In this document: positions 8,251 through 37,114 of the stretch, piece by piece
How the letters are laid out: each line of letters opens with the position of its first letter
Numbering within the stretch: position 1 is the first letter of the stretch
Virus record (IMG/VR): IMGVR_UViG_3300029084_000052
Location: 1-37,114 of that record
Strand: one strand, 5' to 3'
DNA length: 37,114 nucleotides
DNA from: a virus
Taxonomy: Duplodnaviria; Heunggongvirae; Uroviricota; Caudoviricetes
Translations under genes and position numbers: made by a program
The notes under the pieces: model-generated
What the model was told of the DNA's origin: nothing
The model's database searches: none
What the model saw: only the letters and a program-made list of their open reading frames with translations

Positions 8251-8304
8251 TTTGCTGTCCTGTCAATTGGGTTCTGGCGCGGTATCCCGCGCCGTTCAGA
8301 TATA

Positions 8305-8820
8305 TCAGAGGCCGAGGGCGTTGCGGTGCGCTTCCATCAGGTCCACACCGTCCACAATTTCCACCATGTTGATAAGGTCCACTTCATAGAGCACCTCACC
8401 ATTGATGGTCAGCTTCGCGTAGCTGTTGGTACTGGTCACTTTGGTGGTGTTGCTTTCGCCCGTCTTCCACTCGCCGGAATCCACTTCTTTGTGACGTCCA
8501 CGCACGACAAGCTCCACGGCCTGCACTTCCCCGGTATCGTCACGCTGAATAGAGCCGGTAAAGCGCAGCTGGATGCCATCCACCGTGGCTTTACCCATCT
8601 GTTTAAACAGCAGCAATTCAGTACCACCAATGGAAAATTCTGTGTCCAGCGCACTGTCATCAAGCCCCAGATCCACATCCACCGCACCCGGCATTCCGCC
8701 GCCGCGATACTTCTCATATTTGCGGGTAAATTTCGGCAGCGTCAGCGACTCAACGATCCCCTGCCAGTTGTTCCCGTCGTTAAACAGGTTCAGGTGTTTT
8801 AATTTGCGTGGTAAAGCCAT
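8305..8820 (-). CDS. FII: Major tail tube protein FII
   Basis: 171-aa ORF at the P2 FII position, directly downstream of FI. Confidence 0.85.
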   Translation of the reverse strand: MALPRKLKHLNLFNDGNNWQGIVESLTLPKFTRKYEKYRGGGMPGAVDVDLGLDDSALDTEFSIGGTELLLFKQMGKATVDGIQLRFTGSIQRDDTGEVQAVELVVRGRHKEVDSGEWKTGESNTTKVTSTNSYAKLTINGEVLYEVDLINMVEIVDGVDLMEAHRNALGL

Positions 8821-8829
8821 GTTGTCCCC

Positions 8830-10002: not shown

Positions 10003-10078
10003 AGTGGCGAACCTCCTGATTGGATTAGGCTTCGCCCTATGTTGAAGTGATTGTGCCTGACAAACAGCTAAGCGCAGT

Positions 10079-10096
10079 TGTGTCGTTATTCACACA
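10079..10096 (-). promoter_or_regulatory. TGT-N12-ACA element upstream of FI, candidate Ogr-dependent late promoter (PF-like)
   Basis: TGTgtcgttattcacACA about 85 bp upstream of the FI start codon. Confidence 0.45.
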
Positions 10097-10144
10097 AAAT
10101 AACGGTATTTGTCTGCTTGCAGGGATAATCAACATAATGCTGAT

Positions 10145-10711
10145 TCAGGGGGATTCATTGATCTTATTTGCCGGAAATTTTCTATAAATGGTAGAAACGC
10201 CTACATCAAAAATCAGTGCAATACGCTGTATTGATTCTCCGGCCTCGAGTAAACGCCCAATCTGTGCCCACTGTTCGGTGGTCAACTTAGGACGGCGTCC
10301 ACCTACTCTGCCTTTGGCACGAGCTGCAGCCAGCCCTGCCCTGGTACGTTCAACTATCAGTTCGCGTTCCATTTCAGCCAGGGCACCCATGACATGAAAA
10401 AAGAAACGGCCCATTGGGGTACTGGTATCAATACTGTCAGTCAGGCTTCTGAAATTCACACCACGCTGGCGCAACTCTTCTATCAGCGTAACAAGATGCC
10501 GCATACTGCGCCCCAACCTGTCCAGCTTCCAGACAACCAGCGTGTCTCCTGCCGATAGTGTCCTGAGCAGTTTTTTCAGCCCCGGTCTGTCGGACTTAGT
10601 GCCACTGATTTTGTCCTCAAAAATCCGCTCACATCCCGCGCAGTTCAGTGCATTTCGTTGCAAATCGGTGTTCTGGTCATTTGTTGACACGCGTACATAG
10701 CCAATAAGCAT
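10145..10711 (-). CDS. Site-specific DNA invertase, serine recombinase of the Pin/Gin/Hin/Cin family
   Basis: MLIGYVRVSTNDQNTDLQRNAL...LVVWKLDRLGRSM...GRFFFHVMGALAEMERELIVERT is near-identical in pattern to e14 Pin and Hin from memory; start set at the second ATG after a GGGGG Shine-Dalgarno. Confidence 0.85.
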   Translation of the reverse strand: MLIGYVRVSTNDQNTDLQRNALNCAGCERIFEDKISGTKSDRPGLKKLLRTLSAGDTLVVWKLDRLGRSMRHLVTLIEELRQRGVNFRSLTDSIDTSTPMGRFFFHVMGALAEMERELIVERTRAGLAAARAKGRVGGRRPKLTTEQWAQIGRLLEAGESIQRIALIFDVGVSTIYRKFPANKINESP

Positions 10712-10765
10712 GATCATCCCCCTGAATAAAAACCGGAGATGATGCCAGTTAGCTGTTACCTCTGC

Positions 10766-10791
10766 ATTTTCTTAAACGTTGGTTTGGGAGA
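10766..10791. repeat. Invertase crossover site A (26 bp, imperfect dyad, core TT)
   Basis: TTTTCTTAAACG TT GGTTTGGGAGAA; the right half-site is the inverted copy of the left half-site of site B. Confidence 0.6.
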
Positions 10792-11236
10792 AGGTGCTCC
10801 AGCTATTGGCGTTCCGTTCTTCTGGCCGTCCGCTGCAATGCCAAATACTGTAATCGACAGCTGGTCCAGTATGGTGTTTTTGAAGTTCAACGGCGCGAAA
10901 TTCTCTGCCACTGATTATCCTGTGCTGGCGAAAGTATTTCCTTCGCTGGTATTACCTGAAGCCCGCGGTGATTTCATTCGTATCTGGGATGACGGACGAG
11001 GTGCAGACGGTGGTCGCGAATTATTAAGCTGGCAGGCAGCTACAAACTTTTCTCAGTTTGCCGGGAATATAGGCGAAGGTGCGGGACACGCAATTAACTT
11101 TCATGATGGCATCGCCGGAAATCAGCCAGGATTTTCACGATTTAATTTCACCAGTAACTCTGTGGGTGATGGTGTGAATTTTGTTGCTGTCAGACCGCGC
11201 AATATTGCATTTAACTTTCTGGTGAGGGCTAAATAA
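10780..11236 (+). CDS. Alternative tail-fibre C-terminal segment, silent in this orientation and fused to the H constant region only after inversion
   Basis: Reading frame open across site A (..LGLGEGAPAIGVPFFWPSAAMP..) with no start or promoter of its own; its stop overlaps the next ATG (TAATG). Confidence 0.55.
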
Positions 11237-11829
11237 TGAAACCTGTTTTTGATAAAAATGGGCTGGCTACAGTGCCGGGCGATATGCGTTGTTTTTATTA
11301 TGATGCTGAAACATCTGAGTATACGGGCTGGTCTGATGAATATATTAATACTGGCGTAAGTATGCCCGCCTGTTCCACTGGTATTGACCCTGGCGAAAAC
11401 ATTCCGGGAAGAGTGGCAGTATTTACAGGTAAGGGATGGAGCCATGAAGAAGACCATCGCAATGAGACTGTTTACTCAATCGAAAATGGTGCTGCTGTTA
11501 CAGTGGATTATATCGGTGCCATCAAAAACGGTTATGTCACGCTTTCACCGTTAACGCCATATGATAAATGGGATGGTGAGAAATGGGTGACAGATACTGA
11601 GGCACAACACGGTGCCGCAGTAGACGCGGCAGAAGCACAGCGCCAGTCACTGATTGATGCTGCAATGGCTTCCATCAGTCTGATTCAGCTGAAATTACGG
11701 GCCGGACGGAAGCTAATGCAGGCAGAAACCACCCGACTTAACATTGTGCTGGATTACATTGACGCGGTGACGGCAACAGATACCAGCACCGCGCCTGATG
11801 TCATCTGGCCTGAGCTGCCGGAGGCGTAG
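11236..11829 (+). CDS. Alternative tail fibre assembly protein (U'/G' analogue)
   Basis: 197-aa ORF coupled to the alternative fibre segment; its C-terminus DTSTAPDVIWPELPEA parallels the minus-strand assembly protein C-terminus DTSTAPDIEWPTPP. Confidence 0.65.
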   Translation: MKPVFDKNGLATVPGDMRCFYYDAETSEYTGWSDEYINTGVSMPACSTGIDPGENIPGRVAVFTGKGWSHEEDHRNETVYSIENGAAVTVDYIGAIKNGYVTLSPLTPYDKWDGEKWVTDTEAQHGAAVDAAEAQRQSLIDAAMASISLIQLKLRAGRKLMQAETTRLNIVLDYIDAVTATDTSTAPDVIWPELPEA

Positions 11830-22130: not shown

Positions 22131-23897
22131 ATGAACACCACACTGACACCCGCAGATCTCGATCCCCGTCGGCAGGCCATGCTGCTGTACTTTCAGGGAT
22201 ACCGCGTAGCCCGCATTGCTGAAATGCTGGGCGAGAAAGTTGCAACTGTTCACAGCTGGAAAAAACGCGACAAGTGGGGTGATTATGGGCCGCTGGATCA
22301 GATGCAGCTCACCACCGCCGCACGCTATTGCCAGCTCATTATGAAGGAGCACAAAGAAGGGAAAGATTTCAAAGAGATTGACCTGCTGGCGCGCCAGTCG
22401 GAACGCCACGCGCGGATCGGCAAGTTTAACAATGGTGGCAACGAAGCCGACTTAAACCCTAACGTCGCCAACCGCAACAAAGGCCCACGCCGTCAGCCGG
22501 AAAAGAACGTTTTCACCGATGAACAGATTGAGAAGCTGGAAGAAATCTTCCATTCCTCCATGTTCAACTACCAGCGCCACTGGTGGGAAGCCGGAAAAAC
22601 CAACCGCATCCGCAACCTGCTGAAGTCACGCCAGATCGGCGCGACCTTCTATTTTGCCCGTGAAGCCCTGATTGACGCCCTGCTGACCGGACGTAACCAG
22701 ATTTTCCTTTCTGCCAGTAAGGCACAGGCCCACGTATTCAAACAGTACATCATCGACTTTGCCAAAGAAGTAGAGGTGGAGCTGAAAGGCGATCCGATGG
22801 TGCTTCCCAACGGGGCCACACTGTATTTCCTCGGCACCAATGCCCGCACGGCCCAGAGTTATCACGGCAACCTGTATCTGGATGAATATTTCTGGATACC
22901 AAAATTCCAGGAGCTGCGCAAAGTGGCTTCCGGTATGGCTATTCACAAAAAATGGCGACAAACCTATTTTTCCACGCCATCCAGTCTGACACACAGTGCT
23001 TATCCGTTCTGGTCCGGTGCGCTGTTCAACCGTGGGCGCAACAAAGCCGATAAGGTGGACATCGACCTGTCCCACAGCAATCTGGCCCCCGGCCTGCTGT
23101 GCGCAGACGGGCAATACCGCCAGATAGTCACCGTGGAAGATGCGGTGCGCGGCGGCTGTAACCTGTTCGACCTCGACCAGCTACGCATGGAGTACAGCCC
23201 GGACGAATACCAGAACCTGCTGATGTGCGAGTTTGTGGACGATCTCGCGTCCGTGTTTCCGCTCAGCGAGCTGCAGGCGTGCATGGTGGACAGTTGGGAA
23301 GTCTGGACCGACTTTCATGCACTGGCGCTGCGCCCGTTTGGCTGGCGCGAAGTGTGGATCGGTTATGACCCGGCAAAAGGCACGCAAAACGGCGACAGCG
23401 CCGGATGCGTGGTGGTGGCACCGCCAGCCGTGCCGGGTGGTAAGTTCCGCATTCTTGAGCGTCACCAGTGGCGCGGGATGGACTTCCGCGCCCAGGCTGA
23501 CGCCATCAAAAAACTGACCGAACAGTACAACGTGACCTATATCGGTATCGACTCAACCGGCGTTGGTCACGGGGTTTACGAGAACGTGAAAGCGTTTTTT
23601 CCTGCCGTCCGGGAGTTTGTCTACAACCCCAACGTTAAAAACGCCCTGGTACTCAAGGCCTACGACATTATCAGCCACCGCCGTCTGGAGTTTGACGCCG
23701 GGCACACCGACATTGCGCAGTCATTCATGGCTATCCGTCGCGCCACCACCGCCAGCGGCAACCGCCCGACCTATGAAGCCAGCCGCAGCGAAGAAGCCAG
23801 CCACGCCGATCTGGCCTGGGCAACAATGCACGCACTGTTTAACGAACCGCTGCAGGGCGAGTCCGCCAATACCAGCAATATTGTGGAGATTTTTTGA
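22131..23897 (+). CDS. P: Terminase large subunit P
   Basis: 588-aa ORF at the P2 gpP position and of matching length. Confidence 0.85.
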   Translation: MNTTLTPADLDPRRQAMLLYFQGYRVARIAEMLGEKVATVHSWKKRDKWGDYGPLDQMQLTTAARYCQLIMKEHKEGKDFKEIDLLARQSERHARIGKFNNGGNEADLNPNVANRNKGPRRQPEKNVFTDEQIEKLEEIFHSSMFNYQRHWWEAGKTNRIRNLLKSRQIGATFYFAREALIDALLTGRNQIFLSASKAQAHVFKQYIIDFAKEVEVELKGDPMVLPNGATLYFLGTNARTAQSYHGNLYLDEYFWIPKFQELRKVASGMAIHKKWRQTYFSTPSSLTHSAYPFWSGALFNRGRNKADKVDIDLSHSNLAPGLLCADGQYRQIVTVEDAVRGGCNLFDLDQLRMEYSPDEYQNLLMCEFVDDLASVFPLSELQACMVDSWEVWTDFHALALRPFGWREVWIGYDPAKGTQNGDSAGCVVVAPPAVPGGKFRILERHQWRGMDFRAQADAIKKLTEQYNVTYIGIDSTGVGHGVYENVKAFFPAVREFVYNPNVKNALVLKAYDIISHRRLEFDAGHTDIAQSFMAIRRATTASGNRPTYEASRSEEASHADLAWATMHALFNEPLQGESANTSNIVEIF

Positions 23898-24928
23898 TGG
23901 GAAAGAGTAAGAAAAACCGCGCTGCGGCGACGAAACAGAGCCAGCATAAAAATCAAACTTCAGCCGAAGCTTTCAGCTTTGGTGATCCCATTCCTGTACT
24001 GGACCGCCGCGAACTGCTGGACTATGTGGAATGCGTACAGACGGATCGCTGGTATGAGCCACCCGTCAGTTTTGACGGACTGGCACGCACCTTCCGCGCT
24101 GCCGTGCATCACAGTTCACCGATTGCAGTGAAATGCAACATTCTGACCAGCACCTACATCCCTCACCCGCTGCTCAGCCAGCAGGCTTTTTCACGTTTTG
24201 TGCAGGACTATCTGGTATTTGGTAACGCCTACCTGGAGAAACGCACGAACCGGTTCGGTGAAGTTATCGCCCTTGAGCCTGCTCTGGCAAAATACACCCG
24301 ACGCGGGTTAGACCTGGATACCTACTGGTTTGTGCAATACGGTATGATCACCCAGCCATATCAGTTCACGAAAGGCAGCATCTTTCATCTGATGGAACCG
24401 GACATCAACCAGGAAATCTACGGCCTGCCCGGTTATCTTTCTGCTATTCCATCCGCCCTGCTCAACGAGTCTGCCACGCTGTTCCGCCGCAAGTATTACA
24501 TTAACGGCAGTCATGCAGGCTTCATCATGTATATGACCGACGCCGCGCAGAACCAGGAGGATGTAAACAACCTCCGCAACGCGATGAAAAGTGCCAAAGG
24601 TCCTGGTAACTTCCGTAACCTATTTATGTACTCGCCAAACGGCAAAAAGGACGGACTTCAGATCATCCCGTTGTCAGAAGTCGCGGCGAAGGATGAGTTT
24701 TTGAATATCAAGAACGTCAGCCGTGATGACATGATGGCGGCGCACCGTGTACCGCCACAAATGATGGGTATTATGCCGAATAATGTTGGGGGGTTTGGGG
24801 ATGTGGAGAAGGCAAGTAATGTATTTGTTCGTAACGAACTTATCCCCTTACAAAAACGTATAGAACAATTAAATCAATGGATAGGAAACACAATTATTAA
24901 TTTTTTACCATATTCTCTCCAAAGTTAA
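23897..24928 (+). CDS. Q: Portal protein Q
   Basis: About 343 aa; the ATG overlaps the P stop (TGATG). Confidence 0.85.
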   Translation: MGKSKKNRAAATKQSQHKNQTSAEAFSFGDPIPVLDRRELLDYVECVQTDRWYEPPVSFDGLARTFRAAVHHSSPIAVKCNILTSTYIPHPLLSQQAFSRFVQDYLVFGNAYLEKRTNRFGEVIALEPALAKYTRRGLDLDTYWFVQYGMITQPYQFTKGSIFHLMEPDINQEIYGLPGYLSAIPSALLNESATLFRRKYYINGSHAGFIMYMTDAAQNQEDVNNLRNAMKSAKGPGNFRNLFMYSPNGKKDGLQIIPLSEVAAKDEFLNIKNVSRDDMMAAHRVPPQMMGIMPNNVGGFGDVEKASNVFVRNELIPLQKRIEQLNQWIGNTIINFLPYSLQS

Positions 24929-24968: not shown

Positions 24969-25586
24969 TTACCAGTTAAAAATTGATGAGCTGCGAATTG
25001 CAGGAACATCCGATGGATTTCGTTTGGCAGCTGGTTCCATCAACTTACGCTTGTTAAATGCCTGATCAATATAATACTCAGGATTTTTAATAAAGACAGA
25101 GTATTTTACCAATGCACAATATACGTCAGAGTCATTATAATGGGGAACTGTTTTTTCATAAACATGATTCTTTCTAACCAGATAAGGCAAATAATAATCA
25201 TATCCCCAACCTGGCGTTCTTAGACTTATAGAACATCCGCATGATGGATCTGCACATACTGCAGGAGTAAACACACTGTCGTAAATTTCATCTCTGATAA
25301 CACCAATTAGACCATTATAGTTTTCTCCCCAGAGTGATGCTTGAATTTCAGAGTTTATAAATGGACGATTTTTGGTTTCCGTTCCAATAAGAACGACAGT
25401 AACCGTTGAGTCTTTTAAAAAATCCTCACGAATAGTCCTCATTATTGTTTCATCAGTGTTAGTTGTACTAATGTCACCATCACTTACCGACTTATCAATA
25501 AACGATTCTCCTCCGAATAAATCAATAATCTCATCTTTGAGATCTTGTTCGTTAGCATGATGATAACTAAGAAACGTCTTATGCAT
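24969..25586 (-). CDS. TIR-like domain protein (ThsB/DUF1863-like), accessory gene
   Basis: Begins MHKTFLSYHHANEQD (TIR beta-A-like F-L-S-Y); a later VTVVLIGTETKNRPFINSEIQ stretch resembles the ThsB-type core with a candidate catalytic Glu; AT-rich coding sequence. Confidence 0.55.
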   Translation of the reverse strand: MHKTFLSYHHANEQDLKDEIIDLFGGESFIDKSVSDGDISTTNTDETIMRTIREDFLKDSTVTVVLIGTETKNRPFINSEIQASLWGENYNGLIGVIRDEIYDSVFTPAVCADPSCGCSISLRTPGWGYDYYLPYLVRKNHVYEKTVPHYNDSDVYCALVKYSVFIKNPEYYIDQAFNKRKLMEPAAKRNPSDVPAIRSSSIFNW

Positions 25587-26317
25587 TATTCACTCCATTT
25601 ATCAACATTTATATCAAACTCTTTGACTACCTTATCATTGAAGAAATCGTTTACTTCTTTAAAACCTTCCAATACTTGACTAAAATGATAATAATGCTTT
25701 TGTATAGTACTTATAGGGGTTAAATGATACGGCAGTGATATAAATTCGCCGTTAGGGTCTCTATCCTTTGTGGTCACTTTATCATTATCTGAAACATATT
25801 TATGCCATCTCCGATAATTATTTTGATGCTTTGTTAAAAAAGAGTTTAACGTTTTCAAAATTTCATTTGAAAGTAAATACAGTTTTTTATCTCTTTTTTT
25901 CTTCACATCTAGTAATTTCATTTCATCTCTAATGAATTTATAGCACTCATAATATGAGTTTAAAACTTCTTCAATTGAGTCATAATTCGGATCAAATTTA
26001 AATAATGTTCGCTTCGTATCCAGATAATTTTTTACGCTCTTTTTAAAAAGAAGATCAGACTTATTTAGTAAAATATTAATACCACCAAAACTAAGTTGCT
26101 CCAATCTCAATGAATATCTTTGATGAAATGCACCGACCAGCAAGATATAAGCAACTAAAAATAGTATTAATACTGATAGAAAAGCACGAATTATGCTTAC
26201 ATTTGACATGAAATTAACTATAAACCACCATTTTTCAAACGGTGAAAACGGAATGCACCCCATGATAATAAGTAGAAGAACAAAGATACAACCCCATAAA
26301 ACCCACAATCTGTACAT
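25586..26317 (-). CDS. Two-TM membrane protein with a roughly 170-aa Lys/Glu-rich C-terminal domain of unknown family; partner of the TIR-like gene
   Basis: Start at the ATG (MYRLWVLWGCIF..) after an AAAAGGA Shine-Dalgarno; two hydrophobic helices; stop overlaps the TIR-like start (TAATG). Confidence 0.5.
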   Translation of the reverse strand: MYRLWVLWGCIFVLLLIIMGCIPFSPFEKWWFIVNFMSNVSIIRAFLSVLILFLVAYILLVGAFHQRYSLRLEQLSFGGINILLNKSDLLFKKSVKNYLDTKRTLFKFDPNYDSIEEVLNSYYECYKFIRDEMKLLDVKKKRDKKLYLLSNEILKTLNSFLTKHQNNYRRWHKYVSDNDKVTTKDRDPNGEFISLPYHLTPISTIQKHYYHFSQVLEGFKEVNDFFNDKVVKEFDINVDKWSE

Positions 26318-26470
26318 AAGAAAGATCCTTTTTCTTTTTATAATACTGCAACTACACCTCAAGTCAAAACCCTCTTCTGATATTACCCTCTACTACAGTA
26401 ACCCATCACATGACCTCCGACTTATCAGAAGACTAGCCAAACTTTCTCAATCAAATCAGGTTGCGCGCGC

Positions 26471-26495
26471 TCGTATCCCCGCCACGCCTGCCCGC
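26471..26495 (-). other. cos-like sequence (candidate phage cohesive-end site)
   Basis: Minus strand reads GGCGTGGCGGGGA.., matching the first 13 nt of the P2/186 19-nt cohesive end as I recall it; lies in a short GC-rich island. Confidence 0.4.
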
Positions 26496-26605
26496 TTTAT
26501 GTAGTAGTTTTCATGCAGGTGCATGATCTACGCGAAAGCCCGCCAATTCTGGCGGGCCCTAGCAAAAACGATCCTCAAACGATCATGCGATCTCATGCAG
26601 CATAG

Positions 26606-27448
26606 TCATGCACGATCATTTGACTCAGCATCTGCTGCACGCTTGCTGCGCGAAGATGCACTTTTACTATCAATCTTTCGACAGTTCTTTCTATCCCTGG
26701 CTTCATTTTCTTTAAATTTGTTATATGTCTCAGTATCAAAAAACGAAATTGTTTCAACCTCATCTTTTGGTATGAGCACACGGAAATCTTCGATATTAAG
26801 CCGAGACATTCCACTTATCACACCACTATCAAGATAATGTTGGTGATAGTTAGTCGTGATACTAATCGTTAGATCATCTTTATCCCGATATCCGCTTAAC
26901 ATCGGGAGAAGTTCAAGGTGCTCTGAAAGCCCGTTTTCTAACGCCGGACAAGTAACAAGACCAACATAGATTTTGCGAGACGACAGAGTTGCTATGATCG
27001 GAAACTGTCTTGCGGACGCTTCCATGAGTAATGATTCGAAAGCGTTATTACCTACAGCTTTAGCTAAGGCATCCCAGCGACGATCTCCACGTGATGTGCG
27101 TAACTTATTTCCAAAACCTGAAATCGCAGCGAGGACAATTGAAATCATAACCCATGCTATCTGTTTGATTTCATTTATTCTTTGAAGTTTGTCTTTCGAT
27201 GAAGACAACATGCCATTAAAACTGTCAGGTGTTAGATTCAAGGCATTAGCCAGCCAACGAAACCCTCCGCTGACGTTCAAAATAAAGGTGAAAAAACCGC
27301 CAAGGAGAAAAAAAACGATACCCCAGGCAGCCACAAAAAAATAAGCGTCCCAGCCGTTGGAACGCTTATATCGGTATCTTGTTGAAAGTGATAGGTTTAC
27401 ATAAATAAAACCACTAACCAAAATCACTGCTAAAAGTAATGTTGCCAT
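26606..27448 (-). CDS. Three-TM membrane protein with a soluble C-terminal domain, unknown function; accessory gene
   Basis: 280-aa ORF with three N-terminal hydrophobic helices, AT-rich; coupled to the upstream 71-aa gene (TAATG). Confidence 0.5.
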   Translation of the reverse strand: MATLLLAVILVSGFIYVNLSLSTRYRYKRSNGWDAYFFVAAWGIVFFLLGGFFTFILNVSGGFRWLANALNLTPDSFNGMLSSSKDKLQRINEIKQIAWVMISIVLAAISGFGNKLRTSRGDRRWDALAKAVGNNAFESLLMEASARQFPIIATLSSRKIYVGLVTCPALENGLSEHLELLPMLSGYRDKDDLTISITTNYHQHYLDSGVISGMSRLNIEDFRVLIPKDEVETISFFDTETYNKFKENEARDRKNCRKIDSKSASSRSKRAADAESNDRA

Positions 27449-27663
27449 TATCTGGTTCTATTAGTTTTCTCTTTTACAGTGCTCGTTTTGATGCCTTCAA
27501 GCTTATCCATCTGTGCCTTGATGGCATCCATTGCTCTTTTGTTAGACAAGTCTACGGACACAAAACCATCTTTACTAAGATTGAGTTTGTCCTGGTTCTC
27601 TTTAAGAACCCTTGCCAGACGTTCAACTGGGTTACCCAGGCTAAATGCGGCGATGCTTGACAT
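27448..27663 (-). CDS. Small 71-aa hydrophilic protein, unknown function; first gene of a coupled pair
   Basis: ATG preceded by AAGGGGGAG; stop overlaps the start of the 280-aa membrane protein. Confidence 0.45.
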   Translation of the reverse strand: MSSIAAFSLGNPVERLARVLKENQDKLNLSKDGFVSVDLSNKRAMDAIKAQMDKLEGIKTSTVKEKTNRTR

Positions 27664-27933
27664 AACTCCCCCTTTTCACATGGCGCGGAAGTCTACACTC
27701 CGACGCCTACAACCTCAACAGATTATCTTTAAAATTTAGACAACAATATCATCTGTTGATTGCGTTACTTAAACTTAAGTTCAATGCGCTCGATCATGCA
27801 AGCTGTTTCTTAAGAACTGTTAATTTCCTGGCATATATAGTGGTTAAGGTAACAAATTGACACTAACGCCTCGCATAGCTCGTTGTTCAACCTTGCTGAC
27901 GCCAGAAGCAAGTTCAGACGCCAGCAACGTTTC

Positions 27934-28167
27934 TTAATGCAGCCAGCTGTCGTCTTCCCACACCTTCTGCATAATTTTCATCACTTGTTTTCTTTCTTCG
28001 TCCAGTTGCAATCCGGTCAGTTCCACACCGTTAGAGCTACCTTTGCGGATACGAATTACCGTTTTGGGATACAGAGGACGCAGATTGCGGTAAAGCTCGG
28101 ATTCAAGGGCGTCCAGGGTAGACTGGCTAATCTTCTGCTCTTTATCGATCATTATTTCAATGCGCAT
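27934..28167 (-). CDS. DinI-family protein (damage-inducible protein I-like; 186 Tum C-terminal-domain-like)
   Basis: MRIEIMIDKEQKISQSTLDALESELYRNLRPLYP...KIMQKVWEDDSWLH aligns with E. coli DinI (MRIEVTIAK...ALAGELSRR...ILQETWESADDW) from memory. Confidence 0.75.
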   Translation of the reverse strand: MRIEIMIDKEQKISQSTLDALESELYRNLRPLYPKTVIRIRKGSSNGVELTGLQLDEERKQVMKIMQKVWEDDSWLH

Positions 28168-28178
28168 AAAAAGTCACC

Positions 28179-28367
28179 TCAACTGATGACATCCATTGAG
28201 CGGTTGTATTCGTGGGTTCTGATTTTTGCCATGAGTTCATCTGTTAGTTCAGAAACCCACTGCAAAGCCAGCCCCTTCTCTTCATCACTACACTCACTAG
28301 CCGCTACAAGCTTAAGAAAAAAATCAATGCGCTGGAGCTTCAAAGACTCCAAAAAATAGTCCTGCAT
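28179..28367 (-). CDS. Small 62-aa protein, first gene of the SOS-regulated operon (possible Tum N-terminal-like part)
   Basis: Strong AGGAGG Shine-Dalgarno; lies about 45 bp downstream of a LexA box and 11 nt upstream of the dinI-like gene. Confidence 0.5.
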   Translation of the reverse strand: MQDYFLESLKLQRIDFFLKLVAASECSDEEKGLALQWVSELTDELMAKIRTHEYNRSMDVIS

Positions 28368-28409: not shown

Positions 28410-28425
28410 CTGTTTATATTTACAG
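28410..28425 (-). promoter_or_regulatory. LexA operator (SOS box) inside a 37-bp palindrome
   Basis: CTGTTTATATTTACAG (CTG-N10-CAG) within ATACTGTAAATATAACCACTGTTTATATTTACAGTAT; an overlapping near-match CTGTAAATATAACCAC lies just upstream. Confidence 0.7.
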
Positions 28426-28519: not shown

Positions 28520-30934
28520 TTAATACAGGTTTCGCCACTTATCATCTTCCTGCAAACGCTGGTTCCGATAGAAGATACGCAGGCCTGCTCCTGACGGAAT
28601 ACTGCCGCCGCGAAGGAGTAAATCGACCTCTTTCTCGCTACCATCAAATCCTCTGGACTTCAGCTCATAGACGAGCTGCTGTCGCTGATGGTCTGTAATT
28701 CGCTGTTTGTAGTCTTTACGCCGTTTCGGTTTAACCAGGCGTAACCTTGCTGCCAGTTCCCGGCGCTCTTTTTTGCTCATACTGTGCAGGTAATCGTGCA
28801 ACTGCTTGTCATCCATGCGGGTAATGTCCGTTCTGGTGCCCCCATCAGCTGATTTATCTTTCTCCTGTTGGTTCAAATTTTCAGCAAGGGGACAGTTATT
28901 GCCACGAGTCCAAGGGGCGCAAGCGCCCTGGTCGGCTGCCGCCTCCTGAACGTCAACGGCTTTACGGACCATTTTCCACTTCACTGCATGAGTGCAGATC
29001 TTGCCCTCTGCAATGGGTGACCAGATGCCATAAATACGAATACCGTGATCGCCATAGGCGGTCGGCTCTTCGTTGATTTCATAAGCGGTTCTGATGAGGT
29101 GATATTTACGGGGAACCAGTACGCCGCCCTGCTTCATGATGTAGGTGGCAAAGCAACCAGCATCAGCTGCAGCCAGAATGGCATCAAGGCGCGGGTTATC
29201 CAGTACCGGCGCACCTGCTTTTTTGTCACCCTGTTGCCTTGCCGCCTGACCAGCCAGCAATCGCAGTTCACGGTAAGCCTGACGCCCCGGAATGCCAAAG
29301 AAGCGGAATTGCTGAACACGATGCAGAGACGCCCAGGCATTAACGTATTCAGCGTTATCACGCAGAGATTTACCCGTTTCCTTGCTGATCTCGCCAGCCA
29401 GACCACGCCCGTCAATGTTCTTACTGATGTATTTCGCGATGTAGCTTGTTGGTGTACCTTTGCGCGGGTTTATCAGCTCAGACTTAAAGCGTGGTCCTGT
29501 GTTATTACCCAGCTCCTCGCGGTCTTCACGAATGGCAAACTTACGCAACAAAGCAGTAATGGCGCGGCGATCTTTTTTGCGCATAAAACACAACAGGTGC
29601 CAGTGAACTGTACCGTCATGATGCGGCTCAGCCACCCGCACGCCATACCAGCGCAATCCGGCTTTGTACATCGCCTTACGAAATGCAGCAAACATGCCGA
29701 CCAGATAATCACTGCTTTGTCTTACCGTCGCATTTGTCCAAGTCGGGTTGGGCCTGCCGTTATTTAGCGTGGAATGGAAACGTGACGGACAGGTGATGGT
29801 GTAGAAAACGGCGCAGTCACCGCGCATTTCCGCGATAAGCTCCAGACCTTTAACACATGCCATCATCTCATTGCGGCGATGCGCCGGGTTGCTACTACTG
29901 GCGTTTACCACGTCCTCCATATCCAGCGTGTCGCCGTCTTCGTTCACCAGTTCATGAGAACGGAAAAACTCCAGCGACTTACGGCGCTGCTCACGTTTAT
30001 GCATCACGGCTTCATAGCTGACATAGGGAGATGCTTTTTTGCTGACCAGGCAAACAGCACGCAACTGCTCTTCCCGCCATTCGCAACGCATCTTCCATAA
30101 TTTCCGATACCACCAGTCGGCGCACAACATACGCGCCAGCGAACCCGGAATGAGTTCATAGGGTACGGGTTTACGGCGGTTTCTTTTCCGGCGGAGTTGC
30201 TCAAACGCAGGAGGGATGACATCCAGACGCAGGGTTTCCGCCGCCACCCTTTCCCATGTCTTGCGGATTTCTTCTGGCTTAACGTCATCGGTGGCATACA
30301 AATCACCACAAACTGCATCAAGGCACATGCTCATATGCGCGGCAACAAGGGTAGACAGGCGCTTCACCTGAGCCTGACTCATTTCAGGCAAGATCAGCAG
30401 GCCGTCCAGCCCTTCATGGCTTGCCATAAAACGAAAAGATGCAGATAGCTGGCTGTCGCGTACATGCTCCAGTCGTTCCAGACATGGTTTAATCGTCTCA
30501 CGCAAATAGCGGGAATAAGCCTTTGGCCTGCCCAGGCTGCTGAAGTATTCAATACGTTGCATCAGCGGCTTGCTGATATGGGAAGGCTGGGCGTTAACGT
30601 CCGCCAGTATGACCATGTCCGGATTAAAACGCTGCTGCTCATGCACCAGCTTTGCCCGGCTAATGAGCTTATCCTGCTCCATTTCGCGCTGGACAGGATC
30701 ACGGGATTCATTAAAGAAATAACGCTCCCAGACCTGATCACTCAGTGCCTCGCGGCGCAGTTGTTCCTGCTTGTTATCGGCAGCGTACAGAGTGATCAGG
30801 TTTGAAAGCGCAGAAACCGGCGCAACTTCCGCCGGGTCCAGATAAGGGTTAATCGCCTTTTTCGGGCTGTTCCATGAGAATGCTGCGGCGGCCTCGTTAA
30901 AGCCGCTGCAGTTGTTCATATCAGCATGGCTCAT
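28520..30934 (-). CDS. A: Replication initiation protein A (rolling-circle nicking endonuclease, P2 gpA family)
   Basis: 804-aa ORF of P2 gpA size (about 761 aa) at the P2 A position; its start overlaps the Dam stop. Confidence 0.8.
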
Positions 30935-33684: not shown

Positions 33685-34281
33685 ATGTCAACATCAAAGT
33701 ACCCAAATGAGATCAAAATAAATCCCAATAAAGGTGGTAAGGCTGCGATTGAGCGATTAGTCGAAGCTTATGGCTTTACGACACGACAGGCTTTAGCTGA
33801 TCACTTGGAAGTATCAAAAAGCACTCTGGCGAACAGGTATTTGCGGGATACGTTTCCTGCAGACTGGATAATCCAATGTGCTCTTGAAACAGGAACCTCA
33901 CTGAAATGGTTAACCACCGGGCAAGGCCTTAAGCAAAGCTCGCTGACAGCAGCTACAGAAGAGCTTGCCAAGTTTCGCCTTACCGCAGGCAAAATGATTG
34001 AAGATGGTTCATATGTCTTCGATTCATCATTTCTTCCTGCAAATCTTTCATCACCAATTGTTATTCAGGATGGGCTCGTCACATACATTTGTGATCAAAA
34101 ATTTTCTGAAGTACTTGATGGGCACTGGTTAATCAACATCGACGGAACCTATTCCATTCGAAAAATCACAAAGCTTCCAAAAGGTATGATTAAAATTACA
34201 AGTACAGAGAATAGCTTTGAATGTGCATTTTCTGATATTGAAGTAGTTGCTTGTATAAGAAGTACAATAATTTCAAATTAA
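33685..34281 (+). CDS. cI: CI-type immunity repressor, phage 186 type
   Basis: 198-aa ORF with N-terminal motifs (AYGF...QALADHL..S.STLANRY...CALETG.SL.WL.TG.G) resembling 186 CI from memory; divergent from apl. Confidence 0.7.
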   Translation: MSTSKYPNEIKINPNKGGKAAIERLVEAYGFTTRQALADHLEVSKSTLANRYLRDTFPADWIIQCALETGTSLKWLTTGQGLKQSSLTAATEELAKFRLTAGKMIEDGSYVFDSSFLPANLSSPIVIQDGLVTYICDQKFSEVLDGHWLINIDGTYSIRKITKLPKGMIKITSTENSFECAFSDIEVVACIRSTIISN

Positions 34282-34301: not shown

Positions 34302-35978
34302 ATGAATTCATTTTCCATCGTTATATTCTTATTAGCATTTCTCGCCCCCATTCTAGCTGTAATATTATTTAAGCAAAGCAAAAAACATAAAGCGGCTATA
34401 AATACCTTGACAGCTAACAACATAGCCCTTTCCAACCAACTGAAAGAAAATCAAGAAGAATTAGCACAGACTGTACGAGATCTATCAGAGCTTGAAGGAC
34501 GAGCTGCGCCATTATGGCAATACGTAGAATTGCACAGCGCAGTGATGGAAGCAGAGAATAAGATAAAAAATGCAGACTCAATAGCCAGGCAAAAAATAGA
34601 AGAAGCCCAAATAAAGGCTGCTAAGACAGTAAACGAAGCAAATTATCAAGCTCAGATAAAAATAAGCAACGCTAATAGCGAAGCTATAGCAATTACTAAA
34701 GACGCTCGCGATGCACGCCTGAAAGCTAAAGAACGTCTTGATAATGCCAATAGTAAAGCAAATGAGCTGATCTCAAATGCTAATGACAATGCAGTGAAAA
34801 TTATTTCCGATGCAGAAGAAAGAGCAAAAGAGATTGCTGGTTCAGCATATGAAGCTAAAGAGTTTGCAGAAAAATATGAAGCAGTTGCCAAATCAATGAA
34901 AAATAAAATTGAAGGTTATGGTGATGAATGGATCATCCCTAACCGTAGCGTTCTCGATGAATTGGCAGAAAATTATGAGTTTACAGATGCAGGTAAGGAA
35001 TTACAAAAAGCCAGGGAGTTAACAAAATCATTAATAAAAACTAATAAAGCTGCTTCGTGTGATTATGTTGAACAAAACAGGCGTAATACTGCTATCAACT
35101 TTGTTTTAGATGCCTTCAATGGAAGAGTTGACAGTATTTTATCAAAAGTCAAACACAACAATTTTGGAAAACTTTCCCAAGAGATAAAAGATGCGTTTCA
35201 ACTTGTAAATTACAATGGTTCTGCCTTTAGGTCCGCAAAAATAAGTGACATCTATCTTCAAGCTCGACTCAACGAGCTAAAATGGGGAGTTGCAGTTAAT
35301 GAAATTATGCTCGAAGAAAAAGAAGAGCAAAGAAGGATTAAAGAACAACTTCGTGAAGAGGAAAGAGCTCGTAGGGAGTATGAAAAAGCGATAAAAGAAG
35401 CTGAAAAAGAAGAGAAAGCTATTCAGCAAGCTATAAATAAAGCAACAAAAGAGCTTATGCTTGCAAATGAAGAACAACGCTTAGCTTTAGAGCAAAAAAT
35501 AGCTGAACTACAGTTAAAATATGAAGAAGCTGAAGCTAAAAACCAACGAGCTATTTCTATGGCTCAACAAACTAGATCAGGCCACGTTTATATAATTAGT
35601 AATATTGGCTCATTTGGCGAAGATGTATATAAAATTGGAATGACACGCCGCCTTGAACCACTTGATCGTGTTCGTGAACTCGGTGATGCTAGTGTTCCTT
35701 TTTCGTTCGATGTTCATGCGATGATTTATAGTGATGATGCACCATCATTAGAAAATCATCTGCATAAAGTCTTCAACGAAAAACAGGTCAATAAAATTAA
35801 CTCACGAAAAGAGTTTTTCAACGTAAATATTAAAGAAATTAAGTCTGTTATTGAAGATATGAACATCAACGCACAATGGACAATGTTTGCGGAAGCGAAA
35901 GAATATAGAGAGTCACTGGCGATTGAGCAAGAGCGCAAAGCAGCAACTTCCGCCAACGATGAACTGCATGTTGCTTAG
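34302..35978 (+). CDS. Membrane-anchored coiled-coil protein with a C-terminal T5orf172/GIY-YIG-like domain (DUF4041-like architecture); accessory gene
   Basis: N-terminal TM helix, long Ala/Lys/Glu-rich repeats, C-terminal GHVYIISNIGSFGEDVYKIGMTRRLEPLDRVRELGDASVPFSFDVHAMIYS; AT-rich; AAAAGGA Shine-Dalgarno 20 nt after the cI stop. Confidence 0.6.
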   Translation: MNSFSIVIFLLAFLAPILAVILFKQSKKHKAAINTLTANNIALSNQLKENQEELAQTVRDLSELEGRAAPLWQYVELHSAVMEAENKIKNADSIARQKIEEAQIKAAKTVNEANYQAQIKISNANSEAIAITKDARDARLKAKERLDNANSKANELISNANDNAVKIISDAEERAKEIAGSAYEAKEFAEKYEAVAKSMKNKIEGYGDEWIIPNRSVLDELAENYEFTDAGKELQKARELTKSLIKTNKAASCDYVEQNRRNTAINFVLDAFNGRVDSILSKVKHNNFGKLSQEIKDAFQLVNYNGSAFRSAKISDIYLQARLNELKWGVAVNEIMLEEKEEQRRIKEQLREEERARREYEKAIKEAEKEEKAIQQAINKATKELMLANEEQRLALEQKIAELQLKYEEAEAKNQRAISMAQQTRSGHVYIISNIGSFGEDVYKIGMTRRLEPLDRVRELGDASVPFSFDVHAMIYSDDAPSLENHLHKVFNEKQVNKINSRKEFFNVNIKEIKSVIEDMNINAQWTMFAEAKEYRESLAIEQERKAATSANDELHVA

Positions 35979-36061: not shown

Positions 36062-37114
36062 ATGGCAGTACGAAAACTCACCACAGGAAAATGGCTTTGC
36101 GAATGTTACCCCGCCGGACGTAGTGGACGTCGTGTGCGTAAACAATTCGCCACCAAAGGCGAAGCTCTGGCTTTTGAGCGTCACACGATGGAAGAAACCG
36201 AAGCAAAGCCCTGGCTGGGTGAATCAGTGGATCGTCGAACACTGAAAGACGTGGTTGAACTATGGTTCAAACTACATGGTAAATCTCTGACAGCTGGCCA
36301 GCATGTCTATGACAAACTGCTGTTAATGGTTGACGCTCTGGGCAATCCCCTTGCAACCGATCTCACATCTAAAATGTTTGCCCACTATCGAGATAAACGC
36401 CTGACAGGAGAGATCTACTTCAGCGAGAAATGGAAGAAAGGAGCAAGCCCGGTCACCATTAACCTGGAGCAAAGCTATCTAAGTAGTGTTTTTAGCGAAC
36501 TATCCCGCCTGGGCGAATGGTCGTATCCGAACCCACTGGAGAACATGCGAAAATTCACCATCGCAGAAAAAGAGATGGCATGGCTTACCCATGAGCAGAT
36601 TGTTGAATTACTGGCTGATTGCAAACGTCAGGACCCAATTCTGGCACTGGTAGTTAAGATATGCTTAAGCACAGGCGCACGCTGGCGTGAAGCCGTAAAT
36701 CTTACCCGCTCACAGGTGACCAAATACCGAATTACCTTTGTAAGAACGAAGGGGAAGAAAAACAGAAGCATCCCTATCAGTAAAGAGCTTTACGAAGAGA
36801 TCATGGCGCTTGATGGGTTCAATTTCTTCACAGACTGCTATTTTCAATTTTTATCCGTGATGGAAAAAACGTCTATCGTGCTCCCTCGCGGTCAACTGAC
36901 ACACGTTCTGCGCCATACGTTTGCGGCGCACTTCATGATGTCGGGTGGAAACATCCTGGCCTTACAAAAAATTCTCGGACATCACGATATAAAAATGACG
37001 ATGCGTTACGCACATCTGGCACCGGATCATCTGGAAACGGCGCTCCGTTTCAATCCTCTGGCAACGCTGCCAAGTGGCGACAAAGTGGCGGCAGCGGTTG
37101 GCATTACCCCGTAA
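36062..37114 (+). CDS. int: Tyrosine integrase, P2 Int family
   Basis: 350 aa with LSTGARWREA and HVLRHTFAAHFMMSGGNILALQKILGH...MTMRYAHL motifs matching P2 Int from memory; the stop codon is the last three bases of the window. Confidence 0.85.
   Translation: MAVRKLTTGKWLCECYPAGRSGRRVRKQFATKGEALAFERHTMEETEAKPWLGESVDRRTLKDVVELWFKLHGKSLTAGQHVYDKLLLMVDALGNPLATDLTSKMFAHYRDKRLTGEIYFSEKWKKGASPVTINLEQSYLSSVFSELSRLGEWSYPNPLENMRKFTIAEKEMAWLTHEQIVELLADCKRQDPILALVVKICLSTGARWREAVNLTRSQVTKYRITFVRTKGKKNRSIPISKELYEEIMALDGFNFFTDCYFQFLSVMEKTSIVLPRGQLTHVLRHTFAAHFMMSGGNILALQKILGHHDIKMTMRYAHLAPDHLETALRFNPLATLPSGDKVAAAVGITP

What the first reader, a model, noticed from the sequence alone, without database searches (positions are those of the whole stretch)
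26606..27663. Coupled small protein plus 3-TM protein between cos and the SOS operon (old/tin-position hotspot)
In P2 this position holds the old and tin exclusion genes. Here it holds an AT-rich operon of a 71-aa hydrophilic protein and a 280-aa protein with three N-terminal TM helices and a soluble C-terminal domain, overlapping as TAATG. I recognise neither protein. The architecture suggests a small regulator or sensor with a membrane effector, as in abortive-infection or toxin-antitoxin-like modules.
Basis: partly seen in the sequence, partly recalled or inferred. Interest (0 to 1): 0.7.

Follow-up and report, generated by a model that had tools for sequence, protein, structure and literature searches.

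The report
Small protein plus Sm-like membrane protein cassette
A 186/P2-like E. coli prophage carries, in its known cargo hotspot next to cos, a mobile two-gene cassette of unknown function that is most likely a new phage-exclusion module: a small protein coupled to a membrane protein with a cytoplasmic Sm-like domain, plus a conserved terminator-like hairpin inside the second gene.

Summary
Two minus-strand genes (71 aa, 27663..27448; 280 aa, 27448..26606) overlap as TAATG, are AT-rich, and lie between cos and a LexA-boxed DinI operon of a 186/P2-like prophage. Only 52 of about 1,274 E. coli genomes sharing this cos segment carry them, so they are variable cargo.

Neither protein matches Pfam, NCBIfam, PADLOC or any solved structure. 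Rousset et al. 2022 list them as "hypothetical + hypothetical" and did not test them.

New findings:
- Its family has 2,883 representative clusters across Gamma- and Betaproteobacteria.
- A small ORF sits directly upstream in every context examined: 79 of 79 viral loci, plus plasmids and chromosomal islets.
- The cassette has a position-conserved promoter, and the large gene has no Shine-Dalgarno sequence.
- A terminator-like hairpin plus U-tract inside the large gene (27369..27334) is kept by synonymous-codon choice and compensatory changes in 14 lineages.

Best reading (about 0.4): an abortive-infection or toxin-antitoxin-like exclusion module, with a low-expressed membrane effector restrained by an excess of the small partner. 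Superinfection exclusion is the main rival. Function is untested.

The parts
27690..27718 (-). Sigma-70-like promoter of the cassette: -35 TTGAGG (27718..27713), 17-nt spacer, -10 TAGACT (27695..27690)
   Evidence: 8 of 12 matches in the window. An equivalent element sits at the same distance from the ATG in other lineages: L064 TTGTAG/TATACT and L062 TTGTAG/TATGAT from the scan, and L003 TTGTTT/TACAAT read by eye from the alignment. It is below the threshold of the generic scan. Activity not tested.
27666..27672 (-). Strong Shine-Dalgarno sequence (GGGGGAG) of the small gene
   Evidence: Sequence upstream of the ATG is AAAAGGGGGAGTTATG. GGAGG-type motifs are conserved at this position across lineages.
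27448..27663 (-). Small partner gene: 71 aa, hydrophilic, basic (pI 9.9), predicted helix / beta-hairpin / helix with a basic tail; phrog_9843
   Evidence: A small ORF lies immediately upstream of the large gene in 79 of 79 viral loci, and 78 of them are detectably homologous to it. The same arrangement is seen in plasmid and chromosomal copies.
26606..27448 (-). Large gene: 280-aa inner-membrane protein with 3 TM helices and a cytoplasmic Sm-like domain; phrog_3630. Its start overlaps the small gene's stop (TAATG) and it has no SD of its own.
27101..27448 (-). Membrane module (aa 1-116): TM1 aa 1-20, cytoplasmic loop RYRYKRSNGWDA, TM2 aa 35-58, hypervariable predicted periplasmic loop aa 59-94, TM3 aa 95-116
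   Evidence: Hydropathy and positive-inside rule, AF2 helices. Mean pairwise identity by region is 0.52-0.63 for TM1-loop-TM2 and 0.28 for the periplasmic loop, whose length ranges from 30 to 76 aa.
26738..27043 (-). Cytoplasmic Sm-like (LSm/Hfq-type) beta-barrel domain, aa ~136-237, carrying the family's invariant residues (K159, Y161, P182, S185, G186, R188, Y201)
27334..27369 (-). Intragenic terminator-like hairpin (27369..27341; 12-bp stem, 5-nt loop) followed by U7 (27340..27334), at codons 27-38 of the large gene
   Evidence: Flagged by the terminator scan and found in a 48%-identical homolog. Folding energy -18.5 kcal/mol, z -2.9, 0 of 200 shuffles as stable. Present in all 34 distinct variants. 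Hairpin-forming synonymous codons are used in 14 of 14 lineages against backgrounds of 0.25-0.33. 98.3% of cells paired versus 28-47% when slid, and one pair switches U-A to C-G in 5 of 21 sequences. Termination in vivo not tested.
27308..27315 (-). T8 homopolymer (codons 45-47) just downstream of the hairpin's T7 run
   Evidence: Two viral contigs carry frameshifts in these runs (L045 T8 to T9; L055 an insertion in the T7 run) with the small gene intact. These may be real inactivation or sequencing error.
26538..26557 (-). GC-rich hairpin GCCCGCC-AGAATT-GGCGGGC followed by TTTCGCG, downstream of the large gene. It belongs to the conserved cos-flanking backbone and is a likely 3' boundary of the transcript.
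   Evidence: Read from the sequence. It lies in the segment shared by 1,274 E. coli genomes. The T-run is too short for the scan's criteria.
26466..26500 (.). cos-like sequence (GGCGTGGCGGGGATACGAG on the minus strand): the backbone landmark bounding the cassette
   Evidence: The same motif sits next to cos in the P2-hotspot clones printed in Rousset Table S2. The comparison with the P2 cos sequence rests on my own knowledge.

Best explanation
This is an autonomous two-gene accessory cassette (a 'moron') in the cos-proximal cargo hotspot of a 186/P2-like prophage. I propose it is a phage-exclusion module of the abortive-infection or toxin-antitoxin type.

The 280-aa protein would be the effector. 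It is an inner-membrane protein with three TM helices, and its conserved cytoplasmic Sm-like barrel would oligomerise, sense a signal, or both, and then perturb the membrane. The 71-aa basic protein would restrain or regulate it.

The cassette appears built to make much more small protein than large protein. It has its own promoter and a strong SD for the small gene. The large gene has no SD, so it would depend on TAATG termination-reinitiation. A conserved intrinsic-terminator-like hairpin plus U-tract about 80-115 nt into the large gene should end most transcripts after the small gene.

Shown here: the genes and their coupling; the TM topology and Sm-like fold (both predicted); the obligate pairing; the cargo status on several kinds of mobile element; the conserved promoter position; and selection on the hairpin.

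Inferred: toxicity of the large protein, oligomerisation, the small protein's inhibitory role, actual termination at the hairpin, and any anti-phage effect.
For: - Position: the pair sits in the hotspot where P2 has old/tin, and where 3 of 8 further cloned loci defended in Rousset et al.. It is listed there as 'hypothetical + hypothetical' with changing co-cargo.
- Variable cargo: 52 of 1,274 E. coli genomes that share the cos segment carry it.
- The same pair is found in a Klebsiella P2-like phage beside different co-cargo, in tail-module moron sites of siphophages, next to integrases or IS elements, on IncC conjugative plasmids, and as chromosomal islets.
- Obligate linkage: 79 of 79 viral loci have a small ORF at a gap of -4 to +14 nt. 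This persists where the large protein is only about 23% identical.
- Expression design: no SD before the large ORF and a position-conserved promoter.
- Hairpin plus U-tract under RNA-level selection.
- The cytoplasmic Sm-like domain is the most conserved part.
- Two loci have the large gene frameshifted and the small gene intact.
- The same prophage carries two other defence-type cargos, a ThsB-like TIR protein with a TM partner and PD-Lambda-1.
Against: - There are no functional data of any kind.
- No similarity to any known defence protein (PADLOC E<=1: none), although the library does recognise PD-Lambda-1 and ThsB in the same window.
- Only about 21% of cargo protein groups in this hotspot have DefenseFinder hits, and the site also holds partition systems and toxins.
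- The chromosomal copies are not in recognisable defence islands.
- The small-protein model is poor (pLDDT 65) and has no fold match.
- The hairpin is limited to one clade of the family, so it is not essential to the family's function.
- A hairpin in a translated region may not terminate when ribosomes follow the polymerase closely.
Confidence: 0.4

Rival explanations
1. Superinfection exclusion at the inner membrane. The large protein would not be toxic. It would block DNA entry of incoming phages (or plasmids), as HK97 gp15, P22 SieA or T4 Imm do, and the small protein would be an assembly or specificity partner.
For: Inner-membrane protein encoded by prophages. In siphophages the cassette sits between the tail tube or chaperone genes and the tape-measure gene, or within a lambda-like tail module. 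From my own knowledge, that is where the HK97 gp15 exclusion moron lies. The predicted periplasmic loop is the most variable part in both sequence and length (0.28 identity, 30-76 aa), as expected for a surface facing incoming phage parts. The cassette is also on conjugative plasmids.
Against: The most conserved part is cytoplasmic. From my own knowledge, known exclusion proteins are mostly single genes, whereas here a partner is obligate. The low-expression design of the large gene is more typical of toxic effectors. No sequence similarity to SieA/SieB/Imm-type families.
Confidence: 0.25
2. A non-defence lysogenic-conversion or membrane-physiology function, such as envelope or ion homeostasis or stress tolerance, that benefits the host or the mobile element without acting on phages.
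For: Many chromosomal copies lie among metabolic and transport genes with no phage or defence neighbours. The 3 TM + cytoplasmic Sm-like beta-domain layout resembles MscS-type channels in outline (my own knowledge of MscS architecture). The hotspot also carries non-defence cargo.
Confidence: 0.15
3. A pure addiction (toxin-antitoxin) module that stabilises the prophage, plasmid or islet, with no role against phages.
For: Small upstream gene plus a probably harmful downstream gene; excess-of-first-product design; presence on plasmids and in tiny chromosomal islets that keep both genes.
Against: No similarity to any TA family. The small protein is basic and stable-looking rather than a typical labile acidic antitoxin, which is weak evidence. 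Hotspot cargo is swapped rapidly rather than retained (abstract).
Confidence: 0.1
4. A core phage function (lysis, morphogenesis, replication or packaging) of the P2-like phage.
For: Location next to cos and the packaging genes.
Against: Present in only about 4% of E. coli genomes sharing this cos segment. Also occurs in unrelated phage types, plasmids and chromosomes. No match to a PHROG family of known function.
Confidence: 0.03

Closest known systems
P2 old/tin locus and the other cargo of the gpA-cos-gpQ hotspot of P2-like phages (Rousset et al. 2022, PMC9122126)
   Same: Same genomic position. The cassette is variable, AT-rich and apparently self-expressed. The exact proteins (WP_000094764 + WP_021556032) appear in that paper's Table S5.
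   Different: No homology to Old, Tin or any validated system of that study. The pair was not among the cloned loci.
Two-component prophage exclusion systems with a membrane effector (lambda RexA/RexB; mycobacteriophage Butters gp30/gp31 type)
   Same: Prophage-encoded; a soluble partner plus a multi-pass inner-membrane protein; expected to be expressed from the lysogen.
   Different: No sequence relationship (PADLOC holds RexAB models; no hit). Here the soluble partner is tiny (71 aa) and encoded first, and the membrane protein has a large folded cytoplasmic domain.
Sm / LSm / Hfq proteins and WYL sensor domains
   Different: No Pfam LSM, Hfq or WYL hit. It is fused to three TM helices and has a helical insert between beta4 and beta5. 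The family's own motifs (RK-YVG, LSGYRDKD, TNY--HY) are not the Sm1/Sm2 motifs. RNA binding and ring formation are untested.
MscS-type mechanosensitive channels
   Same: Outline only: three TM helices, predicted N-out/C-in topology, then a cytoplasmic beta-domain of Sm-like topology, in a protein of about 280 aa (the MscS architecture is from my own knowledge).
   Different: No sequence or profile similarity; MscS is not among the best structural matches; no C-terminal alpha/beta domain.
Terminator-controlled product ratio in toxin-antitoxin loci (for example type III ToxIN, where a terminator between antitoxin and toxin sets the ratio)
   Same: A Rho-independent-terminator-like hairpin downstream of the first product should limit transcription of the second, probably harmful, product.
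   Different: Here the hairpin lies inside the coding sequence of the second gene and is maintained through synonymous-codon choice. The first product is a protein, not an RNA.
HK97 gp15-type superinfection-exclusion morons
   Same: Small self-contained insert encoding an inner-membrane protein, located in siphophage tail modules next to the tape-measure gene.
   Different: Two genes rather than one, a large cytoplasmic domain, and no sequence similarity detected.

Membership tests
Known anti-phage systems (PADLOC-DB v2.0.0, including the Rousset and Vassallo systems) | Significant match of at least one component to a system HMM | tested here: not met
   No hit for the 71-aa protein. The only hit for the 280-aa protein is E=0.14 to an amino-acid transporter model. 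Positive controls in the same window: ThsB-like TIR (E 3e-12) and PD-Lambda-1 (E 5e-120).
Rousset hotspot systems with TM proteins (2TM+1TM+TIR of AC1, Hydrolase+3TM, gop-beta-cII, RT-nitrilase+1TM, RexAB-like) | Sequence similarity to the cloned proteins | tested here: not met
   BLASTP of both proteins against the sequences printed in Table S2: all E >= 2 for the pair. N-terminal peptides and DNA of the pair are absent from all supplementary files.
Sm/LSm/Hfq superfamily | Sm fold: N-terminal helix followed by five strongly bent beta-strands forming a small barrel | tested here: met
Sm/LSm/Hfq superfamily | Sm1/Sm2 sequence motifs, detectable by the Pfam LSM or Hfq models | tested here: not met
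   No Pfam hit for the query or for 55 diverse members. No PDB sequence hit with profiles.
Sm/LSm/Hfq superfamily | Hexameric or heptameric ring, and binding of U-rich RNA | not testable with these tools
   Only single-chain prediction was available; no binding assay.
WYL ligand-sensing domains | Match to the WYL family (Pfam PF13280) with its conserved motif on an Sm-like barrel | tested here: not met
MscS mechanosensitive channel family | MS_channel Pfam domains or profile similarity across TM3 and the beta-domain | tested here: not met
Type II toxin-antitoxin modules | Two tightly linked, co-transcribed small genes with the first product in excess | tested here: met
   Overlap or gap of -4 to +14 nt in 79 of 79 loci. 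No SD for the second gene. Conserved attenuator-like hairpin. The excess of the first product is inferred from this design, not measured.
Type II toxin-antitoxin modules | Toxicity of one product, neutralised by direct binding of the other | not testable with these tools
   Needs expression and interaction experiments. No homology to any TA family.
Prophage 'moron' (autonomous accessory cassette) | Variable presence at a fixed backbone site, atypical composition, and its own promoter and terminator | tested here: met
   52 of 1,274 genomes. GC 0.41 against 0.51. Position-conserved promoter-like element. Hairpin downstream. The same cassette occurs at other moron sites. Promoter and terminator activity not measured.
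Intrinsic (Rho-independent) terminator or attenuator | Stable GC-containing stem, 3-8 nt loop, followed directly by a U-tract | tested here: met
   12-bp stem, 5-nt loop, U7. -18.5 kcal/mol, z -2.9.
Intrinsic (Rho-independent) terminator or attenuator | Conservation of the structure beyond what the encoded protein requires | tested here: met
   In 14 lineages below 70% aa identity: K=AAG 14/14 (background 0.30), R=CGT/CGC 14/14 (0.28), S=TCC/TCT 13/13 (0.29), D=GAC 11/11 (0.25), A=GCT 14/14 (0.33), F=TTT 14/14 (0.67). Compensatory U-A to C-G in 5 of 21 sequences, 98.3% of cells paired.
Intrinsic (Rho-independent) terminator or attenuator | Transcripts actually end there | not testable with these tools
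   Needs Term-seq, 3' RACE or Northern blots.

The most novel reading that the evidence does not exclude
The large protein is a membrane-anchored Sm/Hfq-like ring that binds nucleic acid at the cytoplasmic face of the inner membrane. The ligand could be U-rich RNA 3' ends, or phage ssDNA or RNA. Binding would gate or assemble its 18-21 TM helices into a pore.

Its own attenuated transcript ends in a hairpin plus U-tail, which is the kind of ligand Hfq-type proteins bind. That transcript, or the small basic protein, could hold the system off until infection. This would be a new class of RNA-sensing membrane immune effector, with an RNA self-control element embedded in its own coding sequence.
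Probability: 0.1. Interest if true: 0.85.

Novelty: new variant of a known kind. Interest (0 to 1): 0.6.

Why it matters
If the cassette excludes phages, it adds a widespread and wholly uncharacterised two-gene system to the defence repertoire. The family has about 2,900 clusters at 50% identity and occurs on phages, IncC plasmids and chromosomes of Gamma- and Betaproteobacteria.

Its effector architecture, three TM helices fused to an Sm-like barrel, did not turn up in any immune system in my database and literature searches.

The intragenic hairpin is of interest on its own account. It is a clear case of a coding sequence constrained at synonymous sites to keep a terminator-like RNA structure, and it offers a simple handle (synonymous mutations) to test how the ratio of the two products is set.

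The work also gives a concrete, testable candidate from the many 'hypothetical + hypothetical' entries in published hotspot catalogues.

Tried and rejected
- Pfam, NCBIfam and PADLOC scans of both proteins: no meaningful hit. PHROGs gave only unknown-function families.
- Pfam scan of 55 diverse family members: only weak DUF6338 hits in 4 members (best E 0.0012). DUF6338 has no useful literature.
- Sequence and profile searches against all PDB chains with A1, A2 and A4: nothing significant. YaeO at E 0.35 is noise.
- MscS hypothesis: rejected on sequence and structure ranking.
- Identity with the validated AC1 '2TM+1TM+TIR' system or other TM-containing Rousset systems: rejected.
- The AFDB Foldseek library was not available.
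- BFVD gave only weak Sm-like hits.
- Literature searches for the accession, for Sm-like TM defence proteins, and for P2 hotspot cargo found no description of this pair.
- Rfam: no family for the hairpin or the leader.
- The hairpin is not universal in the family: it is absent at that site in the Shewanella, Aeromonas, Pseudomonas, Snodgrassella and distant Enterobacter members.
- A generic promoter scan at 9 of 12 matches found nothing upstream of the small gene. The promoter call rests on positional conservation at 8-9 of 12 matches.
- Core phage function: rejected on distribution.
Full report
**1. The observation**

The ORF list shows two minus-strand ORFs, 27663..27448 (71 aa) and 27448..26606 (280 aa). 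The junction reads AGATAATGGCA, so the TAA stop and the ATG start share one base. The pair has 41% GC, against 51% for the window and 53% for gpA.

The small protein is hydrophilic and basic (pI 9.9). The large one has three hydrophobic helices at about residues 1-20, 35-58 and 95-116, followed by a soluble part. The positive-inside rule (RYRYKRS after TM1, KLRTSRGDRR after TM3) predicts N-out/C-in, which puts the C-terminal domain in the cytoplasm.

Both genes are under coding constraint. Against the copy in Klebsiella phage ST15-OXA48phi14.1, the large gene differs at codon positions 1/2/3 by 39/17/135, with 118 synonymous and 35 nonsynonymous codon changes.

**2. The setting**

The window is a 186/P2-like prophage. 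Its landmarks are:
- a host permease gene at 935-2620 and gpD at 3165-4265;
- the portal gene at 23894-24928;
- a cos-like sequence at about 26466-26500;
- the pair;
- a DinI gene (28167..27934) and a 62-aa gene (28367..28179), preceded by the window's only perfect LexA-box match (28410-28425);
- gpA (30934..28520);
- CII, CI and the integrase.

So the pair lies between cos and an SOS-type operon, in the gpA-cos-gpQ interval. Rousset et al. define this interval as the cargo hotspot of P2-like phages, where P2 itself has old and tin.

**3. Variable cargo**

In 5,426 complete E. coli genomes, 1,274 match the adjacent cos segment but only 52 carry the pair. Among isolated phages, 60 records share the cos segment and a single phage (held under two accession records) has the pair. 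In that Klebsiella phage the pair again sits next to DinI, but the cargo on the other side of cos is a SEFIR protein rather than the TIR + TM pair seen here.

The RefSeq proteins WP_000094764 and WP_021556032 appear in Rousset's Table S5 as 'hypothetical + hypothetical', with co-cargo that changes from locus to locus. They are not among the loci that paper cloned.

**4. What the proteins are**

Neither protein hits Pfam, NCBIfam or PADLOC. PHROGs places them in phrog_9843 and phrog_3630, both of unknown function. PADLOC does recognise a ThsB-like TIR protein and PD-Lambda-1 elsewhere in the window, so the negative result for the pair is informative. NCBI's name for the small protein, 'multidrug ABC transporter ATPase', cannot be right for a 71-aa protein with no ATPase motif.

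The domain is therefore Sm-like in fold. It is not a sequence member of the LSM, Hfq or WYL families.

I tested the idea that 3 TM helices plus an Sm-like beta-domain indicate an MscS-type channel. It fails: no MS_channel hit in 55 members, hhalign probability 0.6%, and no MscS among the best structural matches.

Conservation is uneven. The Sm-like core is the most conserved region (mean pairwise identity 0.67), followed by TM1-loop-TM2 (0.52-0.63). The predicted periplasmic loop (0.28, 30-76 residues) and the C-terminal tail (0.23) are hypervariable. Invariant residues across distant members are K159, Y161, P182, S185, G186, R188 and Y201.

**5. Size and spread of the family**

An exhaustive profile search finds 2,883 representative clusters at 50% identity (1,994 at E<=1e-10). 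Nearly all of the 150 listed are 240-290 aa with the full architecture. Named members come from Enterobacterales, Aeromonas, Shewanella, Alteromonas, Pseudomonas and the betaproteobacterium Snodgrassella.

**6. Obligate pairing**

A small ORF lies directly upstream of the large gene in every context examined:
- Pectobacterium: a chromosomal DinI remnant;
- Shewanella: the edge of a P2-like prophage;
- Enterobacter: a lambda-like tail module between the K-like and J-like genes;
- a second Enterobacter P2-like prophage whose large protein is only 23% identical;
- Alteromonas, Aeromonas and Pseudomonas: chromosomal islets;
- Snodgrassella: next to an integrase;
- an IncC conjugative plasmid;
- Salmonella phage SEN5.

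Among 80 viral contigs fetched (of 227 that encode a relative), all 79 with an intact 5' end have the small ORF at a gap of -4 to +14 nt, and 78 are detectably homologous to the 71-aa protein. The small proteins share a helix / beta-hairpin / helix pattern (NP-ERL..LK-N...NK-GF-SVDL-N), which fades in the most distant pairs.

The non-P2 phage contexts are all accessory sites: between the tail tube or chaperone genes and the tape-measure gene, beside an integrase, beside an IS1595 transposase, or in a lambdoid early region.

**7. Expression design**

The small gene has a strong SD (GGGGGAG). The large gene has none, so it should depend on termination-reinitiation at TAATG.

A sigma-70-like element (TTGAGG-17-TAGACT, 27718..27690) ends about 27 nt upstream of the ATG. 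Equivalent elements occupy the same position in other lineages: TTGTAG/TATACT in L064 and TTGTAG/TATGAT in L062, and TTGTTT/TACAAT in Pectobacterium, which I read by eye from the alignment.

The DinI gene upstream ends in a strong hairpin with no U-tract, so some SOS-driven read-through cannot be excluded.

**8. A conserved hairpin inside the large gene**

The terminator scan flagged a 12-bp hairpin plus T7 at 27369..27334, within codons 27-38 (KRSNGWDAYFFV). The same structure appears in a 48%-identical homolog. It folds at -18.5 kcal/mol (z -2.9; 0 of 200 shuffles as stable).

It is present in all 34 distinct sequence variants, down to 42% protein identity. In 14 lineages that share less than 70% amino-acid identity, the hairpin-forming synonymous codons are used every time:

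| Residue | Codon used | Times used | Gene-wide frequency |
|---|---|---|---|
| Lys | AAG | 14/14 | 0.30 |
| Arg | CGT/CGC | 14/14 | 0.28 |
| Ser | TCC/TCT | 13/13 | 0.29 |
| Asp | GAC | 11/11 | 0.25 |
| Ala | GCT | 14/14 | 0.33 |
| Phe | TTT | 14/14 | 0.67 |

Where Asp (GAC) is replaced by Gly (GGC) or Ser (AGC), the Arg codon switches from CGT to CGC, which keeps the base pair. On a 21-sequence alignment, 98.3% of cells pair (28-47% when the partner columns are slid), and that pair is U-A in 16 sequences and C-G in 5, with none broken.

This is selection on nucleic-acid structure, beyond what the protein requires. The orientation (stem followed by a U-run on the sense strand) is that of an intrinsic terminator.

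The element is specific to the clade with the KRS-GW-AYF motif and is absent at that site in distant branches. It matches no Rfam family.

Two viral contigs carry frameshifts in the T7/T8 runs just after it, with the small gene intact.

**9. Interpretation**

Taken together, the evidence describes an autonomous, mobile, two-gene cassette. It appears built to make much small protein and little large protein. The large protein is an inner-membrane protein whose most constrained part is a cytoplasmic Sm-like barrel.

From established knowledge (not tested here): Sm-like domains usually assemble into hexameric or heptameric rings and often bind U-rich RNA; WYL-type Sm-like domains act as nucleic-acid or ligand sensors in defence regulators; and TM proteins in prophage-borne systems are typically suicide effectors or entry blockers.

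My best explanation is an Abi or TA-like exclusion module, with the membrane protein as effector and the small protein as its restraint (confidence about 0.4). The rivals are:
- superinfection exclusion at DNA entry (0.25), supported by the tail-module moron sites and the hypervariable periplasmic loop;
- a non-defence membrane function (0.15);
- pure addiction (0.1);
- a core phage function, which the distribution excludes.

**10. Novelty**

I found no paper that describes the pair. The published hotspot catalogues list it only as hypothetical. The preprint's abstract reports novel antiviral functions only from P4 loci, and its P2 overview names no such pair; I did not read its results on tested loci.

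The kind of element, hotspot cargo with a membrane protein and a partner, is well known. Three things are new: the 3 TM + Sm-like architecture, the size of the family with its obligate partner, and the coding-embedded terminator-like hairpin. Function remains untested, which limits the score.

Noticed in passing
window 24969-26362 (minus strand): A second AT-rich cargo pair (32% GC) lies on the other side of cos, between the portal gene and cos. It is a 205-aa ThsB-like TIR protein (Pfam ThsB_TIR E 1.5e-14; PADLOC ThsB E 3e-12) overlapping a 258-aa protein whose N-terminal stretch looks hydrophobic in the translation (no topology analysis run). There is no ThsA. It is unrelated to the validated AC1 2TM+1TM+TIR system. 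Among the 11 viral loci whose large protein is 98.6-100% identical to the window's, only one (L020) also has it, so the two cassettes are independent.
   Followed up: partly
window 34302-35978 (+): A 558-aa DUF4041 + T5orf172 protein between the CI repressor (33685-34281) and the integrase (36062-37114) matches PD-Lambda-1 (PADLOC E 4.7e-120). This is a third cargo site of the same prophage holding a known defence gene.
   Followed up: partly
window 28410-28425: The window's only perfect CTGT-N8-ACAG LexA-box match (CTGTTTATATTTACAG) lies between gpA and the 62-aa (phrog_698) + DinI genes, consistent with a 186 tum-like SOS operon. A single such match is not rare by chance (44 of 100 shuffles have at least one), so the position is what makes it credible.
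   Followed up: partly
window 27890-27925 (minus strand): Strong hairpin right after the DinI stop (11+3 bp; -27.5 kcal/mol for the 81-nt segment, z -1.9) with no U-tract. It is unclear whether it stops SOS-driven transcription from reading into the cassette.
   Followed up: partly
window ~27720-27800 (minus strand); L002 and L003 equivalents: Upstream of the cassette promoter, three lineages share an ACTTAAGT palindrome and an inverted repeat, CAACAG...CTGTTG in the window and the Klebsiella phage and a looser version in Pectobacterium. This may be an operator or a leader structure.
   Followed up: no
window 27308-27315 and 27334-27340; L045, L055: T8 and T7 homopolymers early in the large gene. 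Two viral contigs have frameshifts exactly there (T8 to T9; an insertion in the T7 run). This could be slippage-type inactivation or phase variation, or assembly error.
   Followed up: partly
window 27448-27663; homologs P0059-P0076: The 71-aa protein is widely annotated by NCBI and UniRef as 'multidrug ABC transporter ATPase'. This is evidently a propagated mis-annotation.
   Followed up: no
L003-L005 (Pectobacterium chromosome) 5372-6819: DinI + small + large genes sit alone between an MscK-like channel gene and an MFS transporter gene, with no other phage genes. This looks like a minimal remnant of a P2-like hotspot retained in the chromosome.
   Followed up: partly
L011/L012 (Enterobacter P2-like prophage) 6779-11262: A 23%-identical version of the pair shares the gpA-portal hotspot with an AAA ATPase + Peptidase_S8 gene pair. 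Its large gene has a different 12-bp hairpin followed by a T-rich tail at codons 10-24, possibly an analogous element.
   Followed up: no
L102 (IncC plasmid pSTY1-2010K-1587) 2872-5789: On IncC conjugative plasmids of Salmonella the pair (68 + 262 aa) lies directly downstream of a 547-aa AAA-family ATPase gene, near a DNA methyltransferase and mer genes. Whether the ATPase belongs with it is unknown.
   Followed up: no
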